From contig JBBSWH010000006.1 in NCBI GenBank assembly GCA_038046385.1, positions 96,001-160,000 on the forward strand: a stretch of 64,000 nt of DNA, read 5' to 3'. This stretch comes from Nanobdellota archaeon. GTDB taxonomy: Archaea > Nanobdellota > Nanobdellia > Woesearchaeales > GW2011-AR4. A program made the translations under genes and the position numbers. Of this stretch, positions 1 through 39,831 are shown piece after piece (position 1 is the stretch's first letter; each line of letters begins with the position of its first letter). Below the pieces are notes generated by a model that saw only the letters and a program-made list of their open reading frames with translations, ran no database searches and had not been told where the DNA came from.

Positions 1-382
1 TTGCTGTAAATGCCAAAACAACATTATCTGTGTTTTCTGGATCTGTAATTTCAAAATCCATTGTATAAACCTTTGTGTCAAAAAGGCCGTTTCTTACTAT
101 AAATGGGTTGAATTTTTTGATTTCAACGGCGTTAGTTGTCTCAATGAGGAAGATATCAGGTATTTTCTTGTCGTTCTCAAGATTTCCTTGCGTGTTTAAT
201 GTTCCTGGAACAACATCAAGCAATAATTTTGACTGCTGAGCTGCGTTTTGCTGGTCTGTCTCCCCTGAAAGCAGCTTTTCCTTGTCTGCTGTTGGAAGAA
301 ACACGATATAAAGAATAATCAGCCCAGAAACGATAGATACCAGAAGAGCGGCATTTATTCCTCCTTGGGCTTTCTTGTACAT
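1..382 (-). CDS. Pilin-like / class III signal-peptide protein (3' end outside window)
   Basis: Manual translation from ATG at 382: MYKKAQGGINAALLVSIVSGLIILYIVFLP..., a KKAQ cleavage motif followed by a hydrophobic helix. The ORF runs off the window edge. Confidence 0.65.
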   Translation of the reverse strand, partial: MYKKAQGGINAALLVSIVSGLIILYIVFLPTADKEKLLSGETDQQNAAQQSKLLLDVVPGTLNTQGNLENDKKIPDIFLIETTNAVEIKKFNPFIVRNGLFDTKVYTMDFEITDPENTDNVVLAFTA

Positions 383-28596: not shown

Positions 28597-29556
28597 TTAT
28601 CGGCCCTGCTTTGATTCGAGGCTTGTGTATGCAATTGTCGGTGCATCGAGTGATATCTTTTTCTGCCTCATTGGATCTGTTAAAGTGATTAATCTGTTGT
28701 CTGCGCCTGCGATTGAGCCTTTGACAAGAATATACTGTGATTTTACAAGACCATATCCGATGAATCCGCCCTTGACGTTTATTTCTTCAGGCTTTGTTCC
28801 TATTTTTACAAGCCATTTGTTGTATTCTGTTCTTAAGTGGTTGCCCATTTTTCCTGCATGAGCTGTTCTCCACATTATGTGGCCCTGCCCTCTCCATGCT
28901 CCCAATGATCCTGGATTTCTTCTGGATTTTTCGGATTTGTGATGCCTTAAAGTGACTCCAAATCTTCGCATTGCTCCCTGGAATCCTTTTCCTCTTGTGA
29001 CTGCGTGAATGTCTGTTAACTGCCCTTCCTTGAATACTTCATTTACTCTGATTTCTTTTCCCAACTTTTCTTTTGCGAATATTAGTTGCTGCTCTTTTGT
29101 TCCGCCTATAGCTATCTCAATTGTTTCCGGCTTCTTTTTTCCCAAGCCAGAAAGTTTTGGCTGTGTGTAGCATGATAATCTTATAGAATCAAAATCACTT
29201 GCTTCTTTTCCTTTCTTCTTTGAAGCCAGAATTTTTCTTTCCATTTCTTTGTCAACAGACTCTGCTAAAACATGAGAAACAATTTGTTTATTTTTATAGA
29301 AAACGATTGAAGCGACTTTGATTGGGGGAACTTCGATGACTGTGACCGGACAGAAAATATCTGCCCCTTTTGTTAAAGATGTTTGCCGGTTGTCGGTAAT
29401 CAGAAGATGAGTCATGCCAACCTTATAGCCTGCGAAACCTAAAGGTTTTGCTTCTTTGCTTTTTGTCCAGTTTCTTATTCTTGCGTGCCTGTTCCTAGCT
29501 ATAGATCTAGGGTGAAACTGCATGCTTCCTGCTCTTGGCTGTCTTGTTCTTGGCAT
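28597..29556 (-). CDS. rpl3: 50S ribosomal protein L3
   Basis: PR.GS, GFAGYKVGMTH, T.GKGFQG, AG.MG.H.RTEYNK, KGSI.G. Confidence 0.96.
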   Translation of the reverse strand: MPRTRQPRAGSMQFHPRSIARNRHARIRNWTKSKEAKPLGFAGYKVGMTHLLITDNRQTSLTKGADIFCPVTVIEVPPIKVASIVFYKNKQIVSHVLAESVDKEMERKILASKKKGKEASDFDSIRLSCYTQPKLSGLGKKKPETIEIAIGGTKEQQLIFAKEKLGKEIRVNEVFKEGQLTDIHAVTRGKGFQGAMRRFGVTLRHHKSEKSRRNPGSLGAWRGQGHIMWRTAHAGKMGNHLRTEYNKWLVKIGTKPEEINVKGGFIGYGLVKSQYILVKGSIAGADNRLITLTDPMRQKKISLDAPTIAYTSLESKQGR

Positions 29557-29731
29557 TGTGTTTGAGACAGATTGGTCTGTCTATTGCGCTTATGTGTGTA
29601 AAAAAGCCTTTTGGTGGCCGCTTTTTGTAGAATCCAGTCATTAAAACTGTACTGAAAAAGCAGTCTTTTCAGGCTCGTTTATGGTTTGTGTTTAAACAAC
29701 ACAAAGTCTTTCCTAGGAAAGAAGTTCGGTT

Positions 29732-29776
29732 TATAAAGGTATCGTTGACCTTTTGAGAGGTCAACGGACCTTTATA
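29732..29776. promoter_or_regulatory. Inverted repeat overlapping the TATA box of the r-protein operon
   Basis: TATAAAGGT-ATCGTTGACCT..AGGTCAACGG-ACCTTTATA; TATA-like boxes face outward on both ends. Confidence 0.55.
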
Positions 29777-29849
29777 TTTGAAAATCTATGATTTTCTTCA
29801 TATAAAGGTTTTGGATAGATTACTTAGGTGTTTTGCTAGTATATACTAT

Positions 29850-29922
29850 AATAATATAGGCTGTCGTCGCTTCGCTCCTCGTCGGACACCCCGTAAGGGA
29901 CAACCCCCGTCCGACCAGCCAT
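29850..29922 (+). repeat. 73-bp GC-rich structured element family C, copy 1
   Basis: 72/73 identical to the reverse complement of 47101-47173; GGCTG/CAGCC and GTCGGAC/GTCCGAC stems. Confidence 0.9.
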
Positions 29923-29933
29923 TACGGACGCTG

Positions 29934-29966
29934 ACCACTGGACATCTTCGCATGAAATATATAAAG
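29934..29966 (+). promoter_or_regulatory. R-box copy 1 (ACCACTGGACAT-N7-BRE/TATA)
   Basis: ACCACTGGACATCTTCGCATGAAATATATAAAG; ATG 55 nt from the motif start. Confidence 0.8.
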
Positions 29967-29988
29967 GGATTCTTACATCAGGAAACAG

Positions 29989-30285
29989 ATGATTGTCAAA
30001 AAGAGTGACTACATAAAGTATAGCCATATAATGGTAAAGAAGCTATACAAATCTACATGTTTTGGAAAAGGATCCATGTACGAGGATAATGTGATCTCAG
30101 GACTGCCTGACGCCAAGATAGCAAAACAAGTCCTTAACGCTTTGGTGAAGCAGGAGATATGCGTCCGCAAGAAAAAGGAGCATGGCTGGAAATATTATCT
30201 CAACATGGACAGGCTAGACAAGATAAAAGAAATTGCAAAAGAAACGAGCATAAACACTATACTGATGCTCATATTAGGTATATGA
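29989..30285 (+). CDS. Small basic hypothetical protein (probable wHTH), paralog 1
   Basis: Paralog of 31098-31403 (shared CFGKGS and KKKEHGWKYYLNMDRLDKIKEI). Confidence 0.75.
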   Translation: MIVKKSDYIKYSHIMVKKLYKSTCFGKGSMYEDNVISGLPDAKIAKQVLNALVKQEICVRKKKEHGWKYYLNMDRLDKIKEIAKETSINTILMLILGI

Positions 30286-30327
30286 AAATATCCCTTATGG
30301 TATAAATAGAAAACCTTATATAATACA

Positions 30328-30705
30328 ATGGAATACACAGAAGATATGGAAAGATCAGTATTTTTGGAAAAGGAAGGAGATACTCCAAAGAATAGGTTAC
30401 TGGATTTTTTTGTTGTTTACTCCGATTTTGACTATTCTTTGAAAGATATAGCCAAACTTTCCAAAGTTAGTTACCCTTACATCAAGACGCACAAGAAAGG
30501 CCTTCTCAAGAACAAATGGATAGTCTTGACAAGAAATGTAGGGAAGGCGCAGATGTACAAATTAAATTTGAAAAGCAAGGTCGTGAAGAAATTCATAGAG
30601 TACTACTGGGCTGTTGTTGACGAAGCTGTGGAAGAGGAGCTTGGGATTAAGAACAAACATAGAAGTTATGCACCTCAGGTTGCTGTTTCTGCTAAGAATT
30701 TGTAG
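30328..30705 (+). CDS. Winged-helix DNA-binding protein, paralog 1
   Basis: SVFL..EGDTPKNR..F....DYS.KDIA..SKV.Y, TR.VGKA.MYKLN; paralog of 31510-31869. Confidence 0.8.
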   Translation: MEYTEDMERSVFLEKEGDTPKNRLLDFFVVYSDFDYSLKDIAKLSKVSYPYIKTHKKGLLKNKWIVLTRNVGKAQMYKLNLKSKVVKKFIEYYWAVVDEAVEEELGIKNKHRSYAPQVAVSAKNL

Positions 30706-30710
30706 ATTAT

Positions 30711-30743
30711 ACCACTGGACATGCTCGCGTGAAATATTTAAAG
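30711..30743 (+). promoter_or_regulatory. R-box copy 2
   Basis: ACCACTGGACATGCTCGCGTGAAATATTTAAAG, 5 nt after the upstream stop codon. Confidence 0.8.
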
Positions 30744-30811
30744 GGTATTTACAATTCTATTAAGATGAAAAGCAAAAAATTTATATATCAAAGATATATA
30801 TCAGTGATATA

Positions 30812-31090
30812 TCTCTGTTGTTGATGTGGTTGAAGCTCTTACAAACAGTTCTATTCCAAGAAGGTACTGGTCAGATTTAAAATCACAGCTTAAAGAGCAG
30901 GGTTTTGAGTTGTACGAAAAAATTGTACAACTGAAATTGCCGGCAGAAGATGGAAAATTCTATGAAACAGATTGCGCTAATACAGAATCAATGTTCAGAA
31001 TTGTTCAGTCTATCCCATCCAAGAAAGCAGAGCCTTTCAAGCTATGGCTGGCGCAAGTAGGATATGAAAGAGTGCAGGAGATAGAAAACT
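30812..31090 (+). pseudogene. Bro-N domain (phage antirepressor-like) gene fragment
   Basis: SVVDVVEALT..PRRYW..QLKLPAEDGKFYETDCAN..RIVQSIPSKKAEPFKLWLAQVGYER; 5' end missing, 3' end cut after EIEN. Confidence 0.75.
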
Positions 31091-31097
31091 TCTTAGA

Positions 31098-31403
31098 TTA
31101 TAACAGAAGTAATATTGGAATAATTGAATTATTTCCTTTTTCTTTTAGTATTTCTTTGATTTTATCTAATCTATCCATGTTTAAGTAGTATTTCCATCCG
31201 TGTTCTTTTTTCTTTTTGCCGCAGATGTTTTGTTTTACAAGTGCTTCCAGCACAGTCTCAACTTTGTCCAGATCTTCTTTTGATATTCCTGATTTTAAAA
31301 CATGGATGTAAGCAGAACCTTTTCCAAAACAGTTTTCATCAAAAAGCTTTTTTACTGTTGTTCTGCTTATTCTTATATACTCACTTTTCTTTACCTTGAC
31401 CAT
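31098..31403 (-). CDS. Small basic hypothetical protein, paralog 2 (inverted relative to its wHTH partner)
   Basis: Paralog of 29989-30285; start adjusted to MVKVKK. Confidence 0.75.
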   Translation of the reverse strand: MVKVKKSEYIRISRTTVKKLFDENCFGKGSAYIHVLKSGISKEDLDKVETVLEALVKQNICGKKKKEHGWKYYLNMDRLDKIKEILKEKGNNSIIPILLLL

Positions 31404-31509
31404 TGGAATGGCAATCACGAAATAATATATAAATATGTGGTCTGAATTTAGTCCCTTATGGGTCTAAATAGAAACCTTTAAATATTCATCATAATATACT
31501 ATCTTTACG

Positions 31510-31869
31510 ATGACAAAATCAGTATTTTTACAGGAAGAAGGCGACACGCCTAAAAACAGGATATGGAGTTTTTTAATAATTCATTCGGAATATGATTATT
31601 CAATGAAGGATATTGCACGATACTCAAAAGTAGGGTACACCACACTGAAAGGGATGTGGAAAGAATTCAATGGAAAAAAGATAGTAATTCAGACAAGATC
31701 TGTTGGAAAAGCAAAAATGTACAAACTCAACATGAAAAATCCTGTTGTAAGCAAATTCATAGACTACTATTGGGCTGTGGTTGAGTCTGTAGTTGAGAAA
31801 GGCCTTGATATTAAGGACAATCACTATAGTTCATCTCCAGGTGTGGCTGTTTCTGCTAGGAATGTTTAG
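31510..31869 (+). CDS. Winged-helix DNA-binding protein, paralog 2
   Basis: Paralog of 30328-30705, including the VAVSA(K/R)N tail. Confidence 0.8.
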   Translation: MTKSVFLQEEGDTPKNRIWSFLIIHSEYDYSMKDIARYSKVGYTTLKGMWKEFNGKKIVIQTRSVGKAKMYKLNMKNPVVSKFIDYYWAVVESVVEKGLDIKDNHYSSSPGVAVSARNV

Positions 31870-31872
31870 GAT

Positions 31873-31884
31873 ACCACTGGACAT
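31873..31884 (+). promoter_or_regulatory. R-box copy 3 (core intact, TATA part degenerate)
   Basis: ACCACTGGACAT 3 nt after the wHTH stop; downstream AAGGGTATGTACAA resembles copy 2. Confidence 0.7.
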
Positions 31885-31935
31885 TTATTGATGTGGTGTT
31901 TTGTCAAGGGTATGTACAAATTGTACCAATCATTT

Positions 31936-31982
31936 AGTTATCGACATTTTGTCGACAACTGAAACCGGCAGCTTCTGATGGG
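31936..31982 (+). pseudogene. Very short Bro-N remnant
   Basis: Translates LSTFCRQLKPAASDG, aligning with LYEKIVQLKLPAEDG and LSQIWVQLKLPAEDG of the other two copies. Confidence 0.55.
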
Positions 31983-31999
31983 TAGAAAACCCTACAAAT

Positions 32000-32032
32000 A
32001 CCACTGGACATCCTCGCGTGAAATATATAAAG
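32000..32032 (+). promoter_or_regulatory. R-box copy 4
   Basis: ACCACTGGACATCCTCGCGTGAAATATATAAAG; begins a ~114-bp block shared with copy 2. Confidence 0.8.
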
Positions 32033-32116
32033 GGATTCTGCAGTTCTATTATTATGAAAAGCAAAAAATTTATATATCAAAGGTATATATCAGTGATATA
32101 TCTTTGTTGGTGACAG

Positions 32117-32392
32117 ATGAGGATCACCTACAAAGGGAAGCCGATATTCCCAACCAGGACTGCGCTGGACGAGCTGGATGCTGTCGGAATTGACTTGCTT
32201 CAGGCAGCCGCTATACTGGAGCAGGGGTTTGAGATAAGAAAAAGATCCTCTAATATGATAGAAAGAGGAGTTCAAAAAGGAAAGAAAATAATAAATGTTG
32301 TTGGAGTGGACATGGGAGGCTACGTGAAGCTGATACATGCCGGCGCTTTTACATCCAGCAGCAAATTCAGGAGGCTTAAAGATGGACTTTGA
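32117..32392 (+). CDS. Putative RelE/BrnT/DUF4258-like toxin
   Basis: 91-aa ORF with GGTGA SD; T..A..E helix then beta strands ending KLIHAG; overlaps the start of a Zn-ribbon/AbrB gene. Confidence 0.5.
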   Translation: MRITYKGKPIFPTRTALDELDAVGIDLLQAAAILEQGFEIRKRSSNMIERGVQKGKKIINVVGVDMGGYVKLIHAGAFTSSSKFRRLKDGL

Positions 32393-32702
32393 CAATATGA
32401 AGATGAGATGTGAATGCAGCGGAAGGATGGAGAAGATATCCACAGAGTGGAAAGGCATACCTGTAAGGGGATGGAGATGCACAAAATGCAAAGAAGAAGT
32501 TTTGAATCCTTTGGATGCGCAGAAGGCGCTTGAGATGGAAAAAGCAAGAAAGAAGAATCTGCTTACTGTCAAATTAAGGAAAGTTGGCAAGAGCAGTGTT
32601 GTAACAGTCCCATTACCGATAATGGAAATGGAATCTCTCAAGGACGGCCAGAAGATGGAATGGAAAGTAGAGTCAGGCAAACTCATTCTGATGCCGGTTT
32701 AG
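32382..32702 (+). CDS. Zn-ribbon + AbrB-domain putative antitoxin
   Basis: CECSG...C.KC.E zinc ribbon followed by KLRKVGKSSVVTVP AbrB motif. Confidence 0.7.
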   Translation: MDFDNMKMRCECSGRMEKISTEWKGIPVRGWRCTKCKEEVLNPLDAQKALEMEKARKKNLLTVKLRKVGKSSVVTVPLPIMEMESLKDGQKMEWKVESGKLILMPV

Positions 32703-32713
32703 AATGAAATTAT

Positions 32714-32746
32714 ACCACTGGACATCTTCAGGTGAAATATTTAAAG
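32714..32746 (+). promoter_or_regulatory. R-box copy 5
   Basis: ACCACTGGACATCTTCAGGTGAAATATTTAAAG; ATG of Bro-N 54 nt from the motif start. Confidence 0.8.
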
Positions 32747-32767
32747 GAGAACTGCATATACAATCTT

Positions 32768-33112
32768 ATGAATGAAGAAAACGCTTTGGTTGTCTTTCAG
32801 GACAAGAAAATAAGGAGGATATGGCACAATAATGAGTGGTATTTCTCGGTTGTTGATATAATTGAAGCCCTAACCGACAGCCCAACTCCTAGACAGTATT
32901 GGGGCAAAGTAAAAGACAGGGAATTTGTAAAACTTGGGTTGTCCCAAATTTGGGTACAACTGAAATTGCCGGCAGAAGATGGAAAATTCTATGAAACAGA
33001 TTGCGCTAATACAGAATCAATGTTCAGAATTGTTCAGTCTATCCCATCCAAGAAAGCAGAGCCTTTCAAGCTATGGCTGGCGCAAGTAGGATATGAAATG
33101 GTTTATGTTTGA
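32768..33112 (+). CDS. Bro-N domain protein, C-terminally truncated
   Basis: FQDKKIRRIW...WYFSVVDII.ALT, QSIPSKKAEPFKLWLAQVGYE, then an abrupt stop. Confidence 0.8.
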   Translation: MNEENALVVFQDKKIRRIWHNNEWYFSVVDIIEALTDSPTPRQYWGKVKDREFVKLGLSQIWVQLKLPAEDGKFYETDCANTESMFRIVQSIPSKKAEPFKLWLAQVGYEMVYV

Positions 33113-33134
33113 TTGATCTGAAATTATTCTTCTG

Positions 33135-33674
33135 TTATTTTTTGCCGATTTTTTCTCCACCTGTAAGGATTAAGGAAATTTTTCCGACAAATTTCACAGC
33201 ATTATCATAAATCTCACTGAGCCTTCTTTCGGTGTATGTCTTAATTGCAGAATATCTTGCAATATAACTTTCTGTTTTTGCATCTTCAAAATATTTCACA
33301 TATTCATCTTCAAAAATTTTGTAGGATTGGCTCAAAAGCTCCAAATCCTCTTTTTCTATTTCTCCCGGCACAAGCAAATGCCCCAATGCTATTTGGGCAG
33401 AGTCGTGATCTTTTACCTCATAGCCTTTGGAGAGGATAGCTGCTTTTGCAGCATACAGCATTGAATAATAGGAAATTGTAATTGCCCAATAATCCCAATA
33501 TATCTTTTTGGGCTGGTCTTTGTTTGGCTGCAATTCTTTAGCATGCTTTGCTATAAGCAGGCTGTTTTCTGCTTTTTCCAGAAATAATTTTATTTTAAAC
33601 GACTGGCCGGATTTGACTATTCTATTTTCCCTCAAAAATTCCGCAAACTGCTTTTTGTAATCTTCCTTACCCAT
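33135..33674 (-). CDS. HEPN domain protein
   Basis: FLEKAENSL..A, W.....YYSMLYAAKAAILSKG...KDH. Confidence 0.8.
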   Translation of the reverse strand: MGKEDYKKQFAEFLRENRIVKSGQSFKIKLFLEKAENSLLIAKHAKELQPNKDQPKKIYWDYWAITISYYSMLYAAKAAILSKGYEVKDHDSAQIALGHLLVPGEIEKEDLELLSQSYKIFEDEYVKYFEDAKTESYIARYSAIKTYTERRLSEIYDNAVKFVGKISLILTGGEKIGKK

Positions 33675-34233
33675 TTAGCACCAGCTCCCAGAACTTTTCA
33701 GGATTATTTAAGATTATGTGGTTAGCTAACACCTGTTTTCCCACGTTTTCTTCTTTTTCTTTCATCATCTGGTTAAATTCTTTTTCTGTTATGAATATTG
33801 GGTTTATTTTTTTCCTGAACATCATCTCATATCTGGAAAAAGACAACGACCTGCTTCCATCTTTGTTTATTATCATCAGGTCTACGTCGCTTTTTTCATT
33901 TTCTGTTTTCTTCGCATAGCTCCCAAACAGGATTACTATATCATTTGACTCTATTTCAGATGCTATTTTTGAGATTAACGGTGTTTTTTTTAAGAATTCT
34001 TTTTTTTCTTCTTCAGATGATATTGCCAGATATGGCTTGATTATTGGGATGATGTTCAATTCTATTAAAATTGCTTTTCCTGCTTTTTCTTTTGTGATTA
34101 AGCCAGACATCTTGCTGATTGTCCTGTGGAACGTTGCATAAGGAATACGGATTAAATTGCTTAATTCATGCATTGTGAACAATTTTCCAATATTCTTTCC
34201 CAGATAATTTATTATTTTTAACTTATTATCCAT
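33667..34233 (-). CDS. wHTH + minimal nucleotidyltransferase (MNT)
   Basis: ILFGSYAK......SDVDLMII; overlaps the HEPN gene. Confidence 0.88.
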   Translation of the reverse strand: MDNKLKIINYLGKNIGKLFTMHELSNLIRIPYATFHRTISKMSGLITKEKAGKAILIELNIIPIIKPYLAISSEEEKKEFLKKTPLISKIASEIESNDIVILFGSYAKKTENEKSDVDLMIINKDGSRSLSFSRYEMMFRKKINPIFITEKEFNQMMKEKEENVGKQVLANHIILNNPEKFWELVLNG

Positions 34234-34280
34234 TTTTAGATAATATTATCCATATTTGATATATAAAGTTATCGGTTGAT

Positions 34281-34313
34281 ACCACTGGACATCCCCGCGT
34301 GAAGTTTATAAAG
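34281..34313 (+). promoter_or_regulatory. R-box copy 6
   Basis: ACCACTGGACATCCCCGCGTGAAGTTTATAAAG. Confidence 0.8.
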
Positions 34314-34342
34314 GAGCTGTCCCTTACTATATCTAACCAGTT

Positions 34343-34380
34343 AAAGTACGAAAAGTTTATAAATACGTAAAACGTACTTT
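34343..34380 (+). promoter_or_regulatory. AbrB-PIN operon promoter with flanking operator-like inverted repeat
   Basis: AAAGTACG...CGTACTTT bracketing GAAAAGTTTATAAATA. Confidence 0.6.
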
Positions 34381-34383
34381 GAT

Positions 34384-34653
34384 ATGGTGATTATAATGAG
34401 GATGGAAACAGCTAAAATGTCAGAAAGGGGCCAGATAATAATCCCAAAGGAGATAAGGGAAGAAGTCGGAGCTTCAACAGATTCTATCTTTGCAGTCAGT
34501 ACTCTTGATAAAGATACTATTGTGATGAGGAAGATTGACCGGGATGCCTTGGTTGAAGAATTCAGGCGCATAAGAAGCAGGACAAAAAAGATGTCTCCAG
34601 CCCAGATTGAGGCAGAGATACATGCATACAGAAAAGAGAAGAGTAGTTCTTGA
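34384..34653 (+). CDS. AbrB/MazE-family antitoxin
   Basis: KMSERGQIIIPKEIREEVG. Confidence 0.88.
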   Translation: MVIIMRMETAKMSERGQIIIPKEIREEVGASTDSIFAVSTLDKDTIVMRKIDRDALVEEFRRIRSRTKKMSPAQIEAEIHAYRKEKSSS

Positions 34654-35029
34654 TACCAATATTGTAATATCGGCATTTATCTCTCCATTTGGGGCTGCAG
34701 CGCAGATATTTGAGATGTTTTTGGAAGGCAATATCATAAATTATACTTCTGAAGAGATACTCCAAGAGGCAGAAGAGGTTATTCACAGGCTAGAATTTAC
34801 TGAGTATATTGCTGATAAAAAATTCATGATTGATAATCTTAGAAAGTTATCATTGATTATAAATGTAACATCAAATGAAATGATTGTTAGGGAAGACCCT
34901 GCAGATGATAAAATTGTAAATTGCGCTCTTGATGCCGGAGCAGATATTGTATCCTGGGACAATCATCTTCTTAAGCTGAAGAAGTTTAGGAATGTTAAGA
35001 TAATTAGCCCGAAGGAGTTTCTTTTATGA
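34622..35029 (+). CDS. PIN-domain (VapC-like) toxin
   Basis: VVLDTNIVISA, DPADDKIVNCA, IVSWD.HLL. Confidence 0.9.
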   Translation: MHTEKRRVVLDTNIVISAFISPFGAAAQIFEMFLEGNIINYTSEEILQEAEEVIHRLEFTEYIADKKFMIDNLRKLSLIINVTSNEMIVREDPADDKIVNCALDAGADIVSWDNHLLKLKKFRNVKIISPKEFLL

Positions 35030-35097
35030 AAATAAAGGATATTTCACTTTCTCAAAGGCCAAGGGAGAGGATGAAGAAGGTTAATTTTTTATATTAA
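35026..35097 (+). pseudogene. radC: RadC (UPF0758) N-terminal fragment
   Basis: Manual translation MKIKDISLSQRPRERMKK matches the RadC N-terminal RPRE motif; cut at the DUF2075 gene end. Confidence 0.65.
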
Positions 35098-36967
35098 ATT
35101 TGTCTAATCTTTCTTGTATATAATTACTCAAATTTTTATCGCAGCAATAAACATAACACCCTTTTTGCCCCCTAGTCATTAAAGTTCTATAAGTATTTTT
35201 TATAATTTCATCTGCAATTTTATTTGCTTTATCTTGATTTTCTTTTGCTATCCTTTTAATTCCTTTTAGCGACTGGTCTGTTTTTGCACGTTTTGTATAA
35301 TCAGTTATAATCTTTCCATTTTCATATCTTAAATCCAATCCTATGATTATTCCTACATAATCAAACTCCAATCCTTGAGAGGTGTGAATACACCCTATTT
35401 CGTTTATAGATTCTTTATCTATTGCCCAAGTTGTTGTGTTACCTAAATTCCAACTCATTGAAAAATTGAATTCTTTAATGTTTATGTCATGAACTGTACT
35501 TTTATTTTTACCTTCCATATTCCAATCCCAACAATATCCTGCCAATAATCTAGATTTATTATTTATATTATTTTTTTCTATAATAATATTTTTTAGCTTA
35601 TTTGGGTCATCAACAACTTTAAATTCATACTCTTTTTCAAATCCATCTGAGTTAGCAGTTTCTCGTATTCCTAACAAATCATCTAACCATGCTAAGTATC
35701 CGTCTGATCCATTACATCTAAACTGGGAATTTAATTCAAGAATTTTAACCTCAGCATCAAACAAAGAAGTGTATTTTATTATTTCTGATTTTCTTCCTAT
35801 ATCAAAAATATCTACTTTTTGCCCTTCGTCAATAAAAAATACACTAAACTTTGAAGCATTAATAATTTCTTTTATTTGATTCTCTCCTAAATTTTTGAAT
35901 AATCCTGACTTTTCATTCAGCCTGTGTGCTTCATCTACAACTAAGGCATCAAAAACGTTTTTATCACAATCGTGAAAGAATCCAGAACTCTTGAATAAAT
36001 TATCTATATGGGATTTAGTGGTTGTTCCTCTTAATTTAGAAGCATAAACATTTCTAGGTGCAGAATTCTTTGATATATAATGCACAACCATATCCTTACT
36101 AGTTAATTTGACTAATAAATTAACAGCCAAAACTGATTTTCCAGTTCCTGGTCCGCCTTCAACTATCATCACTCTTTTTTTGTGGTCATTAAAGGACTTA
36201 AGTGCCATAGACATTACTTCTTCATAGACTACTTTTTGGTCATCTATCAGGGTAAACTCATCTTTTCCTTTCAATAAATTTACTAATGAATCTTGTAGGG
36301 TTTTTGATGGCTTTAACCTACCATGATCTATCTGATACAGGGAATATTTATTGTCACCATATTTTATGAATTTAGAAATAAATTTTCTAAGTTTCAAAAC
36401 TTCTCCTTTTGTGTATATTGGGGCTTTTTCAATATAATAAGAATATATTGGATCTTCAATTTCTGGATTTTTCTCCCTATCGAGATTATGTAAGAAAGCG
36501 CAAGGGTAAACCCCAATATTCTCTTTTTGAACGTTTTCATTAAAGTCTTTGATTAGATTATGATAAGACCAAACTTGATAGGATGGGTGTGTTGATTCGT
36601 GAAGTCCCTTTCCCAATGGAGTCATAACTATTGCGTCTTTCCCTTCTACTTTGTGTACTTCATCCCATCTTTTTAATTCTATTATAACTACTAGATTTGA
36701 TTTGTTTTCATCTTTACCAGAAATAATAAAATCAACTCTTTTACTGGTTGATGGGATACGAAATTCAATAGCTATCCCACAACTATTTGGGATTTCTTCT
36801 GCTTGAACCACTTTATACATATATTGCATAGAATCTGACCAAGAACTTATCTCTTTTTTGGATATGTTTCCTATTTTTTGTTGATAATTTGAATATATCT
36901 CATCTGATATTGTATCATTTAACACAGAGCTACAAAATTCACTTTTTGTTCCTTCATATACTAGCAT
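35081..36967 (-). CDS. DUF2075 (Schlafen group 3-like) helicase with N-terminal nuclease-like domain
   Basis: IEF..P...KRVD..I...ELK.W, GGPGTGKS, VDEAHRL, SQFRC.GS, IHTSQGLEFDY, YRTLMTRG. Confidence 0.88.
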   Translation of the reverse strand: MLVYEGTKSEFCSSVLNDTISDEIYSNYQQKIGNISKKEISSWSDSMQYMYKVVQAEEIPNSCGIAIEFRIPSTSKRVDFIISGKDENKSNLVVIIELKRWDEVHKVEGKDAIVMTPLGKGLHESTHPSYQVWSYHNLIKDFNENVQKENIGVYPCAFLHNLDREKNPEIEDPIYSYYIEKAPIYTKGEVLKLRKFISKFIKYGDNKYSLYQIDHGRLKPSKTLQDSLVNLLKGKDEFTLIDDQKVVYEEVMSMALKSFNDHKKRVMIVEGGPGTGKSVLAVNLLVKLTSKDMVVHYISKNSAPRNVYASKLRGTTTKSHIDNLFKSSGFFHDCDKNVFDALVVDEAHRLNEKSGLFKNLGENQIKEIINASKFSVFFIDEGQKVDIFDIGRKSEIIKYTSLFDAEVKILELNSQFRCNGSDGYLAWLDDLLGIRETANSDGFEKEYEFKVVDDPNKLKNIIIEKNNINNKSRLLAGYCWDWNMEGKNKSTVHDINIKEFNFSMSWNLGNTTTWAIDKESINEIGCIHTSQGLEFDYVGIIIGLDLRYENGKIITDYTKRAKTDQSLKGIKRIAKENQDKANKIADEIIKNTYRTLMTRGQKGCYVYCCDKNLSNYIQERLDKFNIKN

Positions 36968-36969
36968 AG

Positions 36970-37326
36970 TTATAGTTCATTATATTTTTTATTTGATCCT
37001 TTTGATTTTTCTATTGGGTATTTTTCAGAATTCTTCTTTAATTTTTTATTTAATTCCTCACTTAAATTGATATCGTACTTTTGTGCAATTCTTAAAACAA
37101 AATAAAAAATATCACTTAACTCTTCAGAAATCTCGTTTTTCTTTGTTTTGATTATGTGTTCAGATTCTTCGTTAGATTTAAATCTAAAATGTTCTAATAA
37201 TTCAGATGATTCAGTAATAATCCCTATTGCTAAATCTTTAGGGTTATGAAATTTATCCCAATCTCTATCAACACAAAATTTTTTAACTTTGTTTTTCAAG
37301 TCATCTACTGTGGTTTTTGAATCCAT
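36970..37326 (-). CDS. MazG-like nucleotide pyrophosphohydrolase
   Basis: RDW.KFHNPKDLA...E..ELLE.F, EELSD, N.EKYP. Confidence 0.9.
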   Translation of the reverse strand: MDSKTTVDDLKNKVKKFCVDRDWDKFHNPKDLAIGIITESSELLEHFRFKSNEESEHIIKTKKNEISEELSDIFYFVLRIAQKYDINLSEELNKKLKKNSEKYPIEKSKGSNKKYNEL

Positions 37327-37369
37327 CTCTAGTAATTTCTTTATGTTTCTTAATAAACTTTACCCACCT

Positions 37370-38002
37370 TCACCCACACCACTTACACTCTTCTGCTGCA
37401 TCTGGAATGTTATTGGAAAGGACTTTAAGAGCATGAGATAATATTCTTTCAGCATTCGTAACATCTATCTTCATCTTGACTAAATCGGTGTTAAACAATA
37501 CAGTTCCATCAGCGTTGACTTTAGAAGGATGATAAAACAATAAATAAGCGTAATCATGAGTCTTATACCCATTCTTCCTAAGTAAAAAATTGTAAATGTC
37601 AAGCTGATTCTGGTAATGGGCAGCTGTGTCGTCTTTCAGGGGAAAGCCGCGCGTTTTATAATCCAAAACAATGAACTTGCCGCTTTTAACAAGAATGTTG
37701 TCAACTGCCCCGCGTAACACATTACCAGAAGAATCAGTATATGAAATGCCTTTGAAGTTGCTTCTCCAAATAGCAAGCAAAGAAATATCATCAAACAACT
37801 TAACATTCTTCAGCTTAAGAGAAGGAGGCAATCCTTTCCCGATAAAAGAGTCAAAATACTCTTTCAAGACTTTATCCATGCCTGAAGGAAGAGAAGGAAA
37901 TATGCTATCAGGCCTTTTAATGTTTTTATTAAAATGAAGCCAAAAACACCTAGGACAATCTGAAAGAAGCGATAATGATGAAGGGGAAAATTTGTAGGTC
38001 AT
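37370..38002 (-). CDS. PD-(D/E)XK nuclease (RecB/Cas4-like)
   Basis: SPSS....CPRC, GAVD..., LDYKT, QL.IY, C-terminal CKWC. Confidence 0.82.
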   Translation of the reverse strand: MTYKFSPSSLSLLSDCPRCFWLHFNKNIKRPDSIFPSLPSGMDKVLKEYFDSFIGKGLPPSLKLKNVKLFDDISLLAIWRSNFKGISYTDSSGNVLRGAVDNILVKSGKFIVLDYKTRGFPLKDDTAAHYQNQLDIYNFLLRKNGYKTHDYAYLLFYHPSKVNADGTVLFNTDLVKMKIDVTNAERILSHALKVLSNNIPDAAEECKWCG

Positions 38003-38865
38003 TTTATGTACCTTTTCATGAAAAACCTTACAAAATATTTTTGTTTTTCATTAATCTGGCTTGCTTCAAGGTTTTTATAGTATTCCATTCTGTCCTTGAA
38101 TTTAATATTAAGCATGGGGTATTCGTGCCTAATAAGCACATAATTTGCCAGTAACCTGCTTATTCTTCCGTTTCCATCAGAATATGGATGGATGGTAACA
38201 AACTTCAAATGGGACAAAGCGGCCAGTTCAACAGGGTTCATTCTTTTTTCATTCTTGGAATACCATCCAAAAAACTCCGCAAGCAGCTTAGGAACATCTT
38301 CCGGAGCAGGAAAAGAAGTTCTGCTGCCGGTTACTATTATCTTATGAATTCTTAATTTGCCGGCAATGTAATCTTTGGATTCCCTAAAAATCATTTCGTG
38401 CCATTTATTGACAATGCTTAGGCTTAATTTACCTTTAAATTCCATCATTGAGTAAAATGCCTTCCGATAGCCTTCGGTTTCCCTTACTTCGTTCAGGGGC
38501 TTGTTTTTTGGTGTTGTATTATGCAAAAACAACCCTTTTGTGTCATCCAAAGATAAGCTGCTTCCCTCTATCTTGCTTGAATTGTAAATGAAATGAACCA
38601 GAAAATCCTCAATCAGTTTTTGCTTTTCTTCTGCAGGCAAATTGTTTTGCTCTTTATCATATTTTGATTTTATTTCTTTGATTTTGCTGAATGTTATTAA
38701 TTTTAGGTGTTTATATTCCATATCTTCTTTGATTTCTTCTATATTATCGGGAATTTTTTTGCCGAGATACTTGCTTAGTGTTTTGGTTTTTTTGCCTATC
38801 TTGAAATTGTGCTCAACATAGAAATATTTTTTCCCACCAACTGTTCTTTTTTTTATTGCTGCCAT
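37999..38865 (-). CDS. Fic-family protein (class II, with autoinhibitory motif)
   Basis: HPYSDGNGRISR catalytic motif and upstream SSKIEG. Confidence 0.9.
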   Translation of the reverse strand: MAAIKKRTVGGKKYFYVEHNFKIGKKTKTLSKYLGKKIPDNIEEIKEDMEYKHLKLITFSKIKEIKSKYDKEQNNLPAEEKQKLIEDFLVHFIYNSSKIEGSSLSLDDTKGLFLHNTTPKNKPLNEVRETEGYRKAFYSMMEFKGKLSLSIVNKWHEMIFRESKDYIAGKLRIHKIIVTGSRTSFPAPEDVPKLLAEFFGWYSKNEKRMNPVELAALSHLKFVTIHPYSDGNGRISRLLANYVLIRHEYPMLNIKFKDRMEYYKNLEASQINEKQKYFVRFFMKRYIK

Positions 38866-38963
38866 AAGATTAGTTATACCCACTTTCTTATAAATTTTGT
38901 GTTTTTTGTTGAAAAGTGGGGATAAGAATAGAGGGAATTTTTACAAGGGATTGAATAAATGGT

Positions 38964-39506
38964 TTACCCGAATTTTGACAATATCTGACGGCCTATTTTT
39001 GAAATGTACTCTGCAGCTTCTTTGCTGCTTCCTTTAGAAGTAATTTGAATGAGGTATTCGTCTTTGGTTATGTAAAGAGTGTAATAGTAAATGTTTGGAT
39101 CATTGTACTGGCCGCCATAATCGTTTTCGTTGTTTAAATAAAATCTGCTCTGGTCCCCGTAATCATTCACACTGATTAATCCTTCAACACTGCGGTAGTG
39201 CTGGGAAGAATATTGGTATGTTCCGTTTAGATCATTTAGATTTGTAAATTTCTGTAATTGAATAATCACTTCAGTATCATTTAAACTATTAATGGTGTAG
39301 TCACAGAAGCTGTATTGCGCCAGCGGTGAAAATTCGTTGGTTGGGTATTCCTCTGTCAGGCAATCTGTTCCGTTGTTTTTCATTCCAAGCTGCTGAAGGT
39401 CTTGTGCATCAAGCAGCAGCTCCTGGGTTCCTAGTATAGTTGTCTTTGCTGTTGAGCATCCTCCGATAAGCAATAAGAAAATTGTTAAAATTATAGCTGG
39501 TTTCAC
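38964..39506 (-). CDS. Putative lipoprotein
   Basis: Signal peptide with lipobox-like LIGGC. Confidence 0.65.
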   Translation of the reverse strand: MKPAIILTIFLLLIGGCSTAKTTILGTQELLLDAQDLQQLGMKNNGTDCLTEEYPTNEFSPLAQYSFCDYTINSLNDTEVIIQLQKFTNLNDLNGTYQYSSQHYRSVEGLISVNDYGDQSRFYLNNENDYGGQYNDPNIYYYTLYITKDEYLIQITSKGSSKEAAEYISKIGRQILSKFG

Positions 39507-39682
39507 AATATCACCTTTATTTTAGAGGGGTGTTGTTGTTTTTAAATATTATTAAAAAAATGTCAGTTTTTTATTGTAAATTTGTGGGTGTAAAAAATCT
39601 TTTTTTAAGCTAGGGGTTGTGCTGAGTGGCAAGTCTGTTTTTTTCGTATTTTTCTTTATTTTCCTACTTATTTGGTTAGCTG

Positions 39683-39831
39683 ACCCTGTTGTTTCGTGTG
39701 GAAACGTGTTTCTTTCTTCTTTTCTTTTTTTCTTTCTTCTTCTTCTTTTCTATATAGAAATAATATATATAATATATAATAATAAGAATAAAATATATAA
39801 TAATAAAGGGTTCCATAGGAAATCAAGGGGT
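39683..39831. other. Chromosomal replication origin (oriC): two inverted ORBs around an AT-rich DUE
   Basis: Minus-strand GTTTCCACACGAAACAACAGGGT (39683-39705) and plus-strand GTTCCATAGGAAATCAAGGGGT (39810-39831) flank an almost pure A/T tract directly upstream of cdc6. Confidence 0.8.

What the first reader, a model, noticed from the sequence alone, without database searches (positions are those of the whole stretch)
30908..32960. Hypervariable but always palindromic ~25-bp segment inside three Bro-N coding sequences
Seen: the same codon window reads LYEKIVQL, LSTFCRQL and LSQIWVQL in the three Bro-N copies, yet each DNA version is an inverted repeat. They are AGTTGTAC-N9-GTACAACT (30908-30932), AGTTATCGACA-TTT-TGTCGACAACT (31936-31960) and GTTGT-CCCAAATTTGGG-T-ACAAC (32938-32960). 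A similar free palindrome, GTACAAATTGTAC, lies at 31914-31926. Inference: symmetry is kept while the amino acids change. This suggests built-in diversification by quasi-palindrome template switching, or a protein that binds a palindrome inside its own gene so that site and specificity residues co-vary.
Basis: partly seen in the sequence, partly recalled or inferred. Interest (0 to 1): 0.7.

Follow-up and report, generated by a model that had tools for sequence, protein, structure and literature searches.

The report
Conserved coding hairpin in Bro-N genes
A short DNA palindrome runs through the same few codons of a widespread DNA-binding (Bro-N, defence-candidate) gene in archaea, bacteria and viral contigs and stays self-complementary while the encoded amino acids change; the three copies in this window lie in broken pieces of such genes.

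Summary
The four palindromes are at the stated coordinates. Only two lie in Bro-N reading frames, and both of those are truncated. The middle one is a 33-nt orphan between stop codons. The "free" 13-mer is of a kind expected by chance (168 in the window against 133 in shuffles).

The main inference holds strongly. In 177 of 178 homologues from Archaea, Bacteria and viral contigs, at least 8 of 12 core positions pair at this same codon window. Pairing is far above synonymous-codon shuffles: 10.14 against 6.12 pairs, and MFE -8.8 against -1.7 kcal/mol, at this window only. Covariation is 0.491 against 0.153, with 0 of 500 shuffles as high. The same arms are read in two reading frames in a sister subfamily.

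The window is not unusually variable in amino acids. G·T and A·C mismatches are equally common, 43 against 38.

My reading is a selected, structure-forming palindrome, probably acting at DNA level. Its function is unknown. Template-switch self-maintenance is the main rival.

I found no description in print and no Rfam family. This scan has noted the same element before on other DNA.

The parts
30901..30939 (+). Hairpin copy 1. It encodes GFELYEKIVQLKL, with arms AGTTGTAC/GTACAACT. Its closest relative (L013) has ATC where this copy has ATT, so one pair here is G.T.
   Evidence: sequence; model R1, 44.5 bits, E 5e-8; alignment with L013.
30808..31090 (+). Bro-N gene fragment (copy 1). The first ~24 codons are missing and the C-terminal two thirds are missing. 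It is mosaic: the 5' part plus hairpin resembles L013, and the 3' part is ~100% identical to copy 3.
   Evidence: Pfam Bro-N 9.4e-6; PDC-S13 positions 34-120 of 286; 1 TGA inside the match.
31932..31981 (+). Orphan hairpin unit (copy 2). The 33-nt hairpin AUUUAGUUAUCGACAUUUUGUCGACAACUGAAA is followed by a ~17-nt tail that corresponds to 'PAASDG'. It lies between stop codons, and no other Bro-N sequence is around it.
   Evidence: 29.4 bits, E 2e-4; family D6 (70% to the other two copies); (the same 29 nt occur inside intact genes L015, L052, L053, L086).
31914..31926 (.). 13-nt perfect palindrome GTACAAATTGTAC. It may be a decayed Y..V-type hairpin, but it cannot be told from chance.
   Evidence: (this class: 168 in the window against 133 in shuffles); not matched by model R1.
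32930..32968 (+). Hairpin copy 3. It encodes KLGLSQIWVQLKL and is a variant of the common LSPIWVQL allele. CCA became CAA, which gives the out-of-register perfect 12-mer CCCAAATTTGGG.
   Evidence: 41.1 bits, E 3e-7; family alleles.
32768..33112 (+). C-terminally truncated Bro-N / PDC-S13-type gene (copy 3). The Bro-N domain is complete and the reading frame stops after 'VGYEMVYV'. Full-length relatives have about 280-290 residues.
   Evidence: Bro-N 1.4e-11; PDC-S13 positions 1-114 of 286, E 6.6e-50; intact 284-aa paralogue on contig C1.
30927..31069 (+). 3' block that is near-identical to 32956-33098 of copy 3. The identity begins in the right arm of the hairpin.
   Evidence: D2 at 95% over 165 nt; D6 at 100%; (breakpoint +5 nt from the hairpin centre; 0.58 identity to the left, 0.98 to the right).

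Best explanation
The three palindromes are copies of one conserved element. It is 27-33 nt long and self-complementary, with a stem of 8-15 bp and an A/T loop of 3-5 nt. It is written through a fixed codon window of the Bro-N domain in a gene family that PADLOC calls PDC-S13 and that records annotate as 'Bro-N domain-containing' or 'phage antirepressor'.

SHOWN:
- Pairing is what is conserved, not the sequence or the peptide.
- Third codon positions of the left arm pair with first codon positions of the right arm. An amino-acid change in one arm is therefore matched in the other, which gives reverse-complement residue pairs (Y/V, S/R, S/G, T/C, V/N, V/H, L/Q, F/K).
- The constraint acts on synonymous sites, is confined to this window, and holds in Archaea, Bacteria and viral contigs.
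- In a sister subfamily the same arms are read in another reading frame.

INFERRED (my commitment):
- The palindrome is kept by purifying selection on a fold-back structure that tolerates one internal mismatch.
- It acts at the DNA level, as a hairpin on either strand or as a cruciform, because mismatches show no strand bias.
- Its reader must be host-independent. The most plausible readers are the Bro-N protein itself, which would give a cis site that travels with the gene, or the replication/recombination machinery.

PARTLY SHOWN:
- The element is a place where copies get cut and rejoined. This accounts for the three partial copies in this accessory-gene island.

The function itself is not known.
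For: - All 30 homologues from relatives fold as a hairpin at these codons, in about 9 peptide types. All of the best 80 loci from a scan of bacterial and archaeal genomes do the same, some with perfect 15-bp stems.
- In 112 unique genes, the symmetric positions k=3..12 form Watson-Crick pairs in 79-110 of 112, with 2-4 pair types at each position.
- Against synonymous-codon shuffles: 10.14 against 6.12 pairs of 12; 327 of 22,400 shuffles reach the observed value; 111 of 112 genes lie above their null mean. The MFE is -8.84 against -1.70 kcal/mol, and only at offsets -3..+3 codons along the domain.
- An independent tool gives 79.8% of cells paired against 60.7%, 316 double-change cells against 106, and covariation 0.491 against 0.153 (0 of 500 shuffles). 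Slid registers give 28-39% paired.
- With paralogues and viral contigs added: 120 of 121 cellular and 57 of 57 viral sequences have at least 8 of 12 pairs (two sister-subfamily rows, L124 and L032, were dropped before the count).
- Third-position identity is 0.38-0.85 inside the window and about 0.25-0.40 outside it.
- The arms GGGGTACA/TGTACCCC are read as WGTICTP in L023 and as GGVQ(N/F)VPP in L124 and L030.
- No strand bias: G.T 43 against A.C 38.
- Evidence against a pure correcting drive: the C.T mismatch at k=6 occurs in 22 of 112 genes. The A.C mismatch at k=8 occurs in 10 of 112, where TTA/CTA to TTG/CTG would be synonymous.
- Ten orphan or pseudogene hairpins average 9.1 pairs, against 10.1 in intact genes.
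- Cut-and-rejoin evidence: the junction between copy 1 and copy 3 lies at +5 nt, and that between L008 and L029 at +29 nt. In L130 a gene is cut directly after the hairpin and a new copy follows. L132 is cut after the hairpin, L133 is frameshifted at it, and L126 is cut about 20 nt after it. Orphan units lie upstream of intact genes in L097 (three units in tandem, 51-nt period) and L048 (two units).
Against: - No partner, phenotype or expression data exist. No RNA run was listed, and only assembled contigs could be laid.
- The breakpoint evidence is weak. Only 4 strongly mosaic pairs were detectable among 180 sequences, and 2 of those break about 142-145 nt upstream, not at the hairpin. Two of four within +/-30 nt is not significant.
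- Orphans were found with a hairpin model, so by construction every orphan contains the hairpin.
- Orphan hairpins are only slightly less paired than intact ones (9.1 against 10.1, n=10), so 'decay without the gene' is not firmly shown.
- The lack of G.T excess argues against RNA, but kinship of the sequences weakens it. In the viral set the loops are strand-biased (AAT 30 and AAA 13 against ATT 3 and TTT 1), which would suit a sense-strand (RNA) reading.
- 'Corrected' variants of the mismatched S/V type exist and are common (Y/V and S/G). That is what template switching would produce.
Confidence: 0.45

Rival explanations
1. Self-maintaining palindrome without function. During replication the arms fold back and intra-strand template switching copies one arm from the other. 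This keeps the palindrome symmetric in a protein segment that tolerates it. The same fold-back provokes slippage, truncation and partial duplication, which leaves orphans and fragments.
For: - The mechanism is universal, so it fits a spread over Archaea, Bacteria and viral contigs.
- There is no strand bias in mismatches.
- Both 'corrected' forms of the mismatched S/V pair exist (Y/V and S/G).
- For identical arms, the centre codons include reverse-complement partners. In 121 cellular genes: AAA 32 and TTT 22; ATT 32 and AAT 24.
- Debris lies beside the genes.
- Arm homogenisation and spacer inversion by this process in coding genes is described in yeast (PMC8604942; start of the abstract seen in the listing).
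Against: - Mismatches that a drive should erase persist across phyla, including a synonymous-fixable A.C at k=8 (10 of 112) and a C.T at k=6 (22 of 112).
- Orphans, which are free of protein constraint, are not more perfect than genes (9.1 against 10.1 pairs).
- 0 of 8 close pairs show a paired change or a loop inversion (low power).
- Retention in 177 of 178 sequences is hard to get from a bias alone.
- The viral loops are strand-biased.
Confidence: 0.25
2. mRNA hairpin. The stem-loop acts in the transcript, for example as a pause site, a stability or processing site, or a binding site for the gene's own product. Selection acts on the sense RNA only.
For: - The element always lies in the transcribed, translated region and is best kept in intact genes.
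- Loops in the viral-contig set are A-rich on the sense strand.
- G.T pairs on the sense strand occur in 43 cells.
Against: - A.C cells (38) are about as common as G.T cells (43), and other mismatches are commoner still (253). Selected RNA stems usually favour G.U.
- No T-run follows the stem, so it does not resemble an intrinsic terminator.
- There is no Rfam match.
- The same element would have to work with bacterial and archaeal expression machinery.
Confidence: 0.17
3. Programmed diversification or cassette store. The partial copies and orphan hairpin units upstream of genes are silent donors, and recombination at the hairpin swaps the N-terminal module or the linker of the expressed gene.
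For: - Orphan units of different allele types lie upstream of intact genes, in the same orientation, in L097 (three units, 51-nt period) and L048 (two units). This window holds three types.
- Two mosaic junctions lie at the hairpin.
- The gene family is a defence candidate.
Against: - The orphans are partly decayed: 8-10 of 12 pairs, with stop codons around them.
- In this window there is no intact recipient gene. The intact paralogue is on another contig.
- No recombinase was found among the 34 window ORFs scanned.
- The breakpoints are not significantly concentrated at the hairpin.
Confidence: 0.07
4. The Bro-N protein binds the palindrome as double-stranded DNA in a sequence-specific way, and the residues encoded by the palindrome are the specificity residues, so site and reader co-vary.
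For: - The palindrome encodes the alpha2-beta3 linker and the start of strand beta3, next to the 'wing' of a winged-helix-like fold.
- The best structural matches are DNA-binding domains: DdrC N-terminal domain Z 7.9, Dachshund Z 5.7, Mbp1 Z 4.2. By the tool's own note, Z below 8 may reflect only a common arrangement.
Against: - A sequence-specific site would conserve sequence within a type but gives no reason for pairing of all 10-15 positions.
- The same arms encode different peptides in two reading frames, which breaks any fixed link between residue and base.
- Binding was not tested.
Confidence: 0.04

Closest known systems
[quoted passage not shown] 2019, PMC6649704; abstract read)
   Same: Inverted repeats are embedded in protein-coding genes. 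Both arms are translated, and protein function and a stringent secondary-structure element are kept at once.
   Different: Those repeats are many, long (up to 284 bp), perfect and confined to the mitochondrial genomes of one animal group. Here there is one short element (8-15 bp stem) at one fixed codon window of one protein domain, shared by Archaea, Bacteria and viral contigs, with covariation between lineages.
Integron attC sites (features recalled from general knowledge, not from a call)
   Same: Structure is conserved rather than sequence. There are imperfect palindromes with tolerated mismatches, small arrays occur, and the setting is accessory-gene cassettes.
   Different: attC sites lie at the 3' ends of cassettes rather than inside a conserved domain, need an IntI integrase, and carry conserved core sites. 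Here the element is in frame in a gene, no integrase was found among the 34 window ORFs scanned, and the arm ends do not read as the recalled core motif.
Template-switch homogenisation of short inverted repeats in coding genes (PMC8604942; start of the abstract seen in the listing)
   Same: Short inverted repeats in coding sequence, concerted multi-nucleotide changes in both arms, and spacer inversion as a predicted by-product.
   Different: That work describes scattered events in yeast genes. It does not describe a family-wide element held at one position across domains of life. The direct signatures were not seen here among close relatives (0 of 8 pairs).
Cis-acting sites that lie inside the gene of the protein that uses them, such as replication origins inside initiator genes of some phages and plasmids (recalled, not checked here)
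   Same: A nucleic-acid site overlaps the coding sequence, so site and protein are inherited together.
   Different: In those systems the protein-site interaction is demonstrated and the site sequence is conserved. Here no interaction is shown and only the pairing is conserved.

Membership tests
Pfam Bro-N (PF02498) | Profile match above the curated gathering score | tested here: met
   Copy 1 scores 26.6 bits (cut-off 25.6; profile positions 34-92 of 96). Copy 3 scores 45.2 bits (profile positions 1-92 of 96). Copy 2 is too short to score.
PADLOC PDC-S13 (single-gene phage-defence candidate) | Match over the full 286-position profile | tested here: not met
   The window copies cover only profile positions 1-114 (E 6.6e-50) and 34-120 (E 9e-42), so they are truncated members. 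The paralogue on contig C1 matches positions 1-276 of 286 at 2.2e-117. No defence activity was tested, and a search for the name in papers gave 0 hits.
Integron attC site | An integron integrase nearby, and a position at cassette boundaries | tested here: not met
   No integrase or other recombinase family was found among the 13 + 21 window ORFs scanned with Pfam. The element lies in frame inside a conserved domain.
Integron attC site | Conserved core sites at the arm ends and defined extrahelical bases (features recalled) | tested here: inconclusive
   Read by eye on alignment A3 only. The arm ends are (A/C)AGTTGT...ACAACTG(A/T). The mismatches are specific to each allele type (k=6, 8, 10). 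No attC model was run.
IS200/IS605-type end hairpins | An adjacent TnpA (Y1) or TnpB gene | tested here: not met
   Neither was found among the window ORFs scanned.
Intrinsic (rho-independent) terminator | A G+C-rich stem followed by a run of T | tested here: not met
   The stem is followed by CTGAAA(T/A)T(G/A) in nearly all rows of A3.
Any Rfam family | Covariance-model match | tested here: not met
   A permissive cmscan over 29500-35200 gave 5 weak matches (E 0.34-9.8). None overlaps a hairpin.
Quasi-palindrome template-switch mutation | Paired arm changes or spacer inversion arising in one step between close relatives | tested here: inconclusive
   0 of 8 distinct close pairs (flanks at least 88% identical) show either. 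They show only single changes at outer or loop positions. Power is low.
Conserved RNA/DNA secondary structure (general criterion) | Compensatory covariation above controls at a fixed position | tested here: met
   13 of 15 pairs show changes on both sides, and covariation is 0.491 against 0.153 (0 of 500 shuffles).

The most novel reading that the evidence does not exclude
The hairpin is a portable cis site read by the gene's own Bro-N protein, on DNA or on the transcript. It is written through the codons of the domain so that regulator and site cannot be separated by recombination. It would work in any host, which lets this possibly toxic defence-type gene move between Bacteria, Archaea and viruses while keeping its own control. 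Related DNA-binding families such as RhuM would carry the same device.
Probability: 0.15. Interest if true: 0.85.

Novelty: new variant of a known kind. Interest (0 to 1): 0.75.

Why it matters
This is a nucleic-acid structure that dictates which amino-acid pairs a protein may carry, and it is kept at one codon window across domains of life. That makes it a rare, clean case of a second code overlapping a reading frame.

If it is selected, a widespread accessory or defence-type gene family carries an undescribed cis element, and the constraint on its synonymous sites would mislead codon-based evolutionary analyses.

If it is self-maintained by template switching, it is a natural long-term example of a mutational process shaping a protein, and it offers an easy reporter for that process.

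In either case the orphan hairpins and gene scraps in accessory-gene islands are explained as relics of this gene. They should not be annotated as independent regulatory sites.

Tried and rejected
- tRNA or att-site idea for the island repeats: 0 tRNA genes in the window.
- Rfam: nothing at the hairpins.
- Literature. 'Bro-N' + hairpin + coding region gave 0 papers. 'PDC-S13' gave 0. 'Bro-N' + palindrome gave 6 papers, none about a coding palindrome judged by title or abstract start. 'Bro-N' / inverted repeat / synonymous: the listed papers are not relevant. I read the passages on Bro-N in PMC13712841, and they concern genes in giant-virus terminal repeats only.
- Idea that the DNA hairpin encodes the protein's beta-hairpin: rejected. 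The model (pLDDT 89.4) puts residues 56-66 in the alpha2-beta3 linker plus the start of beta3, whereas the beta-hairpin spans 63-81.
- Foldseek against the PDB: no match with E at or below 0.001.
- Expression: no RNA holder was listed.
- Reads: only assembled contigs could be laid, and no variant letters or indels were reported. Other community contigs match only the 33-nt hairpin, with unlike flanks.
- Recombination hot-spot test: only 4 strong mosaic pairs, 2 of them near the hairpin. This is not significant.
- Homology of the RhuM N-terminal region with Bro-N: hhalign gave probability 0.5% and E 0.13, so it is not supported.
- NCBIfam gives no name for the full-length paralogue.
- Isolated phage genomes: only 4 of 50,697 records hold a relative.
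- Scripts stopped with errors. One search stopped after printing the table that I use here. One search was redone.
- Complex prediction was not run. A homodimer result would not decide between the readings.
Full report
WHAT IS IN THE WINDOW

The window looks archaeal. A ribosomal-protein operon runs on the minus strand up to 29556. Genes for Orc1/Cdc6, both PolD subunits, MCM and TBP follow from 39882. Between them, from about 29.6 to 39.5 kb, lies an island of small accessory genes: MazE-like, PIN, HEPN plus nucleotidyltransferase, Fic, a PD-(D/E)XK nuclease, a MazG-like protein and a Schlafen-type helicase.

The cassettes are headed by a repeated promoter-like motif at 29932, 30709, 31870, 31998, 32712 and 34279. 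The window holds no tRNA gene.

THE OBSERVATION

The setting differs from what was described:
- Copy 1 (30808-31090) is a Bro-N fragment that lacks both ends.
- Copy 3 (32768-33112) has a complete Bro-N domain but stops after 'VGYE'. Full-length relatives have about 280-290 residues.
- Copy 2 is a 33-nt hairpin with a short tail between stop codons.

The genome holds one intact 284-residue paralogue, on contig C1. It matches PADLOC PDC-S13 at 2.2e-117. Pfam recognises only its Bro-N domain and NCBIfam gives it no name. Plasmid records call relatives 'Bro-N domain-containing protein', 'phage antirepressor protein' or 'BRO family protein'.

Judged inside the window alone, palindromes of these sizes are not unusual, and the free 13-mer is of a chance class.

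THE FAMILY TEST

I collected homologous genes from three sources: relatives of the genome (31 of 61 genomes have a match), a scan of one genome per prokaryotic species (601 relatives, best 80 kept) and viral contigs (308 relatives, best 80 kept).

Every one of the first 30 folds into a hairpin at exactly these codons, although the peptides fall into about nine types. The 80 loci from Archaea and many bacterial phyla do the same. The best cases are perfect 15-bp stems, in which FQLST-I-CRQLK is encoded by a sequence that is its own reverse complement.

In 112 unique genes the symmetric positions k=3..12 around the centre codon form Watson-Crick pairs in 79-110 of 112, with two to four pair types at each position.

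With the amino acids held fixed and synonymous codons drawn from the family's usage, 6.12 of 12 pairs are expected and 10.14 are observed. Only 327 of 22,400 shuffles reach the observed value. The folding energy departs from shuffles only within three codons of this site (-8.84 against -1.70 kcal/mol).

The pair-counting tool agrees. It finds 316 double-change cells against 106, and covariation of 0.491 against 0.153 with 0 of 500 shuffles as high. Slid registers drop to 28-39% paired.

With further paralogues and the viral set added, 120 of 121 cellular and 57 of 57 viral sequences have at least 8 of 12 pairs. Two sister-subfamily rows were set aside before this count. The one failure, L138, has a bulged hairpin of the sister type.

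It is not passed for 'hypervariability'. Amino-acid entropy here is no higher than in the preceding helix, while third codon positions are unusually conserved.

THE DNA, NOT THE PEPTIDE, IS THE CONSERVED OBJECT

In a sister subfamily the arms GGGGTACA/TGTACCCC are read as WGTICTP in L023 and, one base out of register, as GGVQ(N/F)VPP in L124 and L030. Of 7 sister-type loci examined, 3 have clear hairpins, 3 have weaker or bulged ones and 1 is cut by its contig end.

The 29-nt allele of orphan copy 2, including its A.C mismatch, is identical to that of intact genes in 4 of 111 aligned rows. In metagenome contigs, other genes share just this 33-nt stretch, with unlike flanks.

WHERE IT SITS IN THE PROTEIN

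A confident model (pLDDT 89.4) places residues 56-66 in the linker after helix 41-54 and in the first half of strand 63-68. The turn 'AEDGK' and strand 74-81 complete the wing.

The fold resembles winged-helix-like DNA-binding domains only weakly: DdrC N-terminal domain Z 7.9, Dachshund Z 5.7, Mbp1 Z 4.2. Foldseek finds nothing at E of 0.001 or below.

AT WHAT LEVEL IT ACTS, AND WHAT KEEPS IT

Mismatched cells show no strand bias: G.T 43, A.C 38, other 253. That speaks against selection on the sense RNA alone and for a DNA-level palindrome. Kinship among the sequences and the A-rich loops of the viral set weaken this argument.

Several points count against a pure template-switch drive:
- A C.T mismatch in mid-stem (22 of 112) and an A.C mismatch that a synonymous change would repair (10 of 112) persist across phyla.
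- Ten orphan or pseudogene hairpins are slightly less paired than intact ones, not more (9.1 against 10.1 of 12).
- Among the 8 distinct close pairs whose hairpins differ, none shows a paired change or a loop inversion.

Several points count for it:
- Both 'corrected' forms of the S/V type are common.
- Centre codons for identical arms include reverse-complement partners.
- There is debris beside the genes.

I therefore commit to a selected fold-back structure that tolerates one mismatch, probably at DNA level, at 0.45. Template-switch self-maintenance stands at 0.25 and an mRNA hairpin at 0.17.

REARRANGEMENTS

Copy 1 is a mosaic. Its 5' part and hairpin are close to a relative's gene (L013). 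From the right arm onward it is about 100% identical to copy 3.

A second junction, between two genomes (L008 and L029), lies 29 nt after the centre.

Elsewhere:
- A gene is cut directly after the hairpin and followed by a new copy (L130).
- One gene is cut after the hairpin (L132), one is frameshifted at it (L133) and one is cut about 20 nt later (L126).
- Orphan units of different types stand upstream of intact genes (L097: three units with a 51-nt period; L048: two units).

This fits a break-prone element, but the evidence is biased and thin. Orphans were found with a hairpin model, and only 2 of the 4 detectable mosaic pairs break near the hairpin.

COMPARISON AND NOVELTY

No Rfam family matches, and four literature searches found no description.

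The nearest published things are the coding palindromes of nematomorph mitochondria (PMC6649704, abstract read) and template-switch homogenisation of inverted repeats in yeast genes (PMC8604942, abstract start). Integron attC sites share structure-not-sequence conservation, but the membership features tested are not met.

Earlier notes of this scan describe the same element on other DNA: DinD-like bacterial genes, and phage and giant-virus Bro-N genes. I re-derived the family-wide pairing and the orphan copies independently. I did not test the giant-virus claims.

VERDICT

The setting in this window is gene debris. The mechanism is unresolved between selection and drive.

Noticed in passing
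window 29931-29992, 30708-30769, 31870-31884, 31997-32058, 32711-32772, 34278-34339: A repeated promoter-like element (ATACCACTGGACAT..GTGAAATATTTAAAGG) heads each small cassette of the island. Its 12-nt core occurs 19 times exactly in the 1.28-Mb genome, or 27 times with at most one mismatch, against 1 for the reversed control. One copy lies just upstream of the intact Bro-N paralogue on contig C1.
   Followed up: partly
window 29989-30705 and 31098-31869: Two unnamed small ORFs occur twice as a pair: 98/106 aa ('...KKKEHGWKYYLNMDRLDKIKEI...') and 125/119 aa ('...EGDTPKNR...YYWAVV...'). In the second pair the first gene is inverted. Neither has a Pfam family. The 119-aa ORF has a weak PADLOC hit (PDC-M05A, E 2.8e-4).
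   Followed up: no
window 29600-39800: The accessory island (TA-like pairs, HEPN/nucleotidyltransferase, Fic, PD-(D/E)XK nuclease, MazG-like protein, Schlafen-type helicase = PADLOC PDC-S41) is wedged between the ribosomal-protein operon and orc1/cdc6-PolD-MCM. That places it next to where an archaeal replication origin is usually found (the origin's position is recalled, not tested).
   Followed up: no
L098:1135-1159; also L219, L220, L221, L222: Genes of the RhuM family (PF13310) carry a different coding hairpin in the linker before their 'YNLD' strand, for example AACTGTTGCA-AAAAA-TGCAACAGTT encoding STVAKNATVQ. In 4 of 5 genes the lowest-energy window of the N-terminal region is at this linker, with 0-12 of 100 synonymous shuffles as low. 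In L219 the minimum lies elsewhere. The domain layout resembles Bro-N, but hhalign does not support homology (E 0.13).
   Followed up: partly
L097:985-1125 and 1190-1400: Upstream of an intact family member in a bacterial contig lie three hairpin units of different allele types, in tandem with an exact 51-nt period. They are followed by G+C-rich repeated hairpins of another kind (ATTCCGG-GCAAG-CCGGAAT).
   Followed up: partly
window 31932-31964: In contigs of four metagenome runs, summed word depth in the bins holding the hairpins is about 2-10 times that of most other bins. Other contigs match only the 33-nt hairpin allele and have unlike flanks on both sides. So the hairpin is the most widely shared nucleotide stretch of the gene in those communities.
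   Followed up: partly
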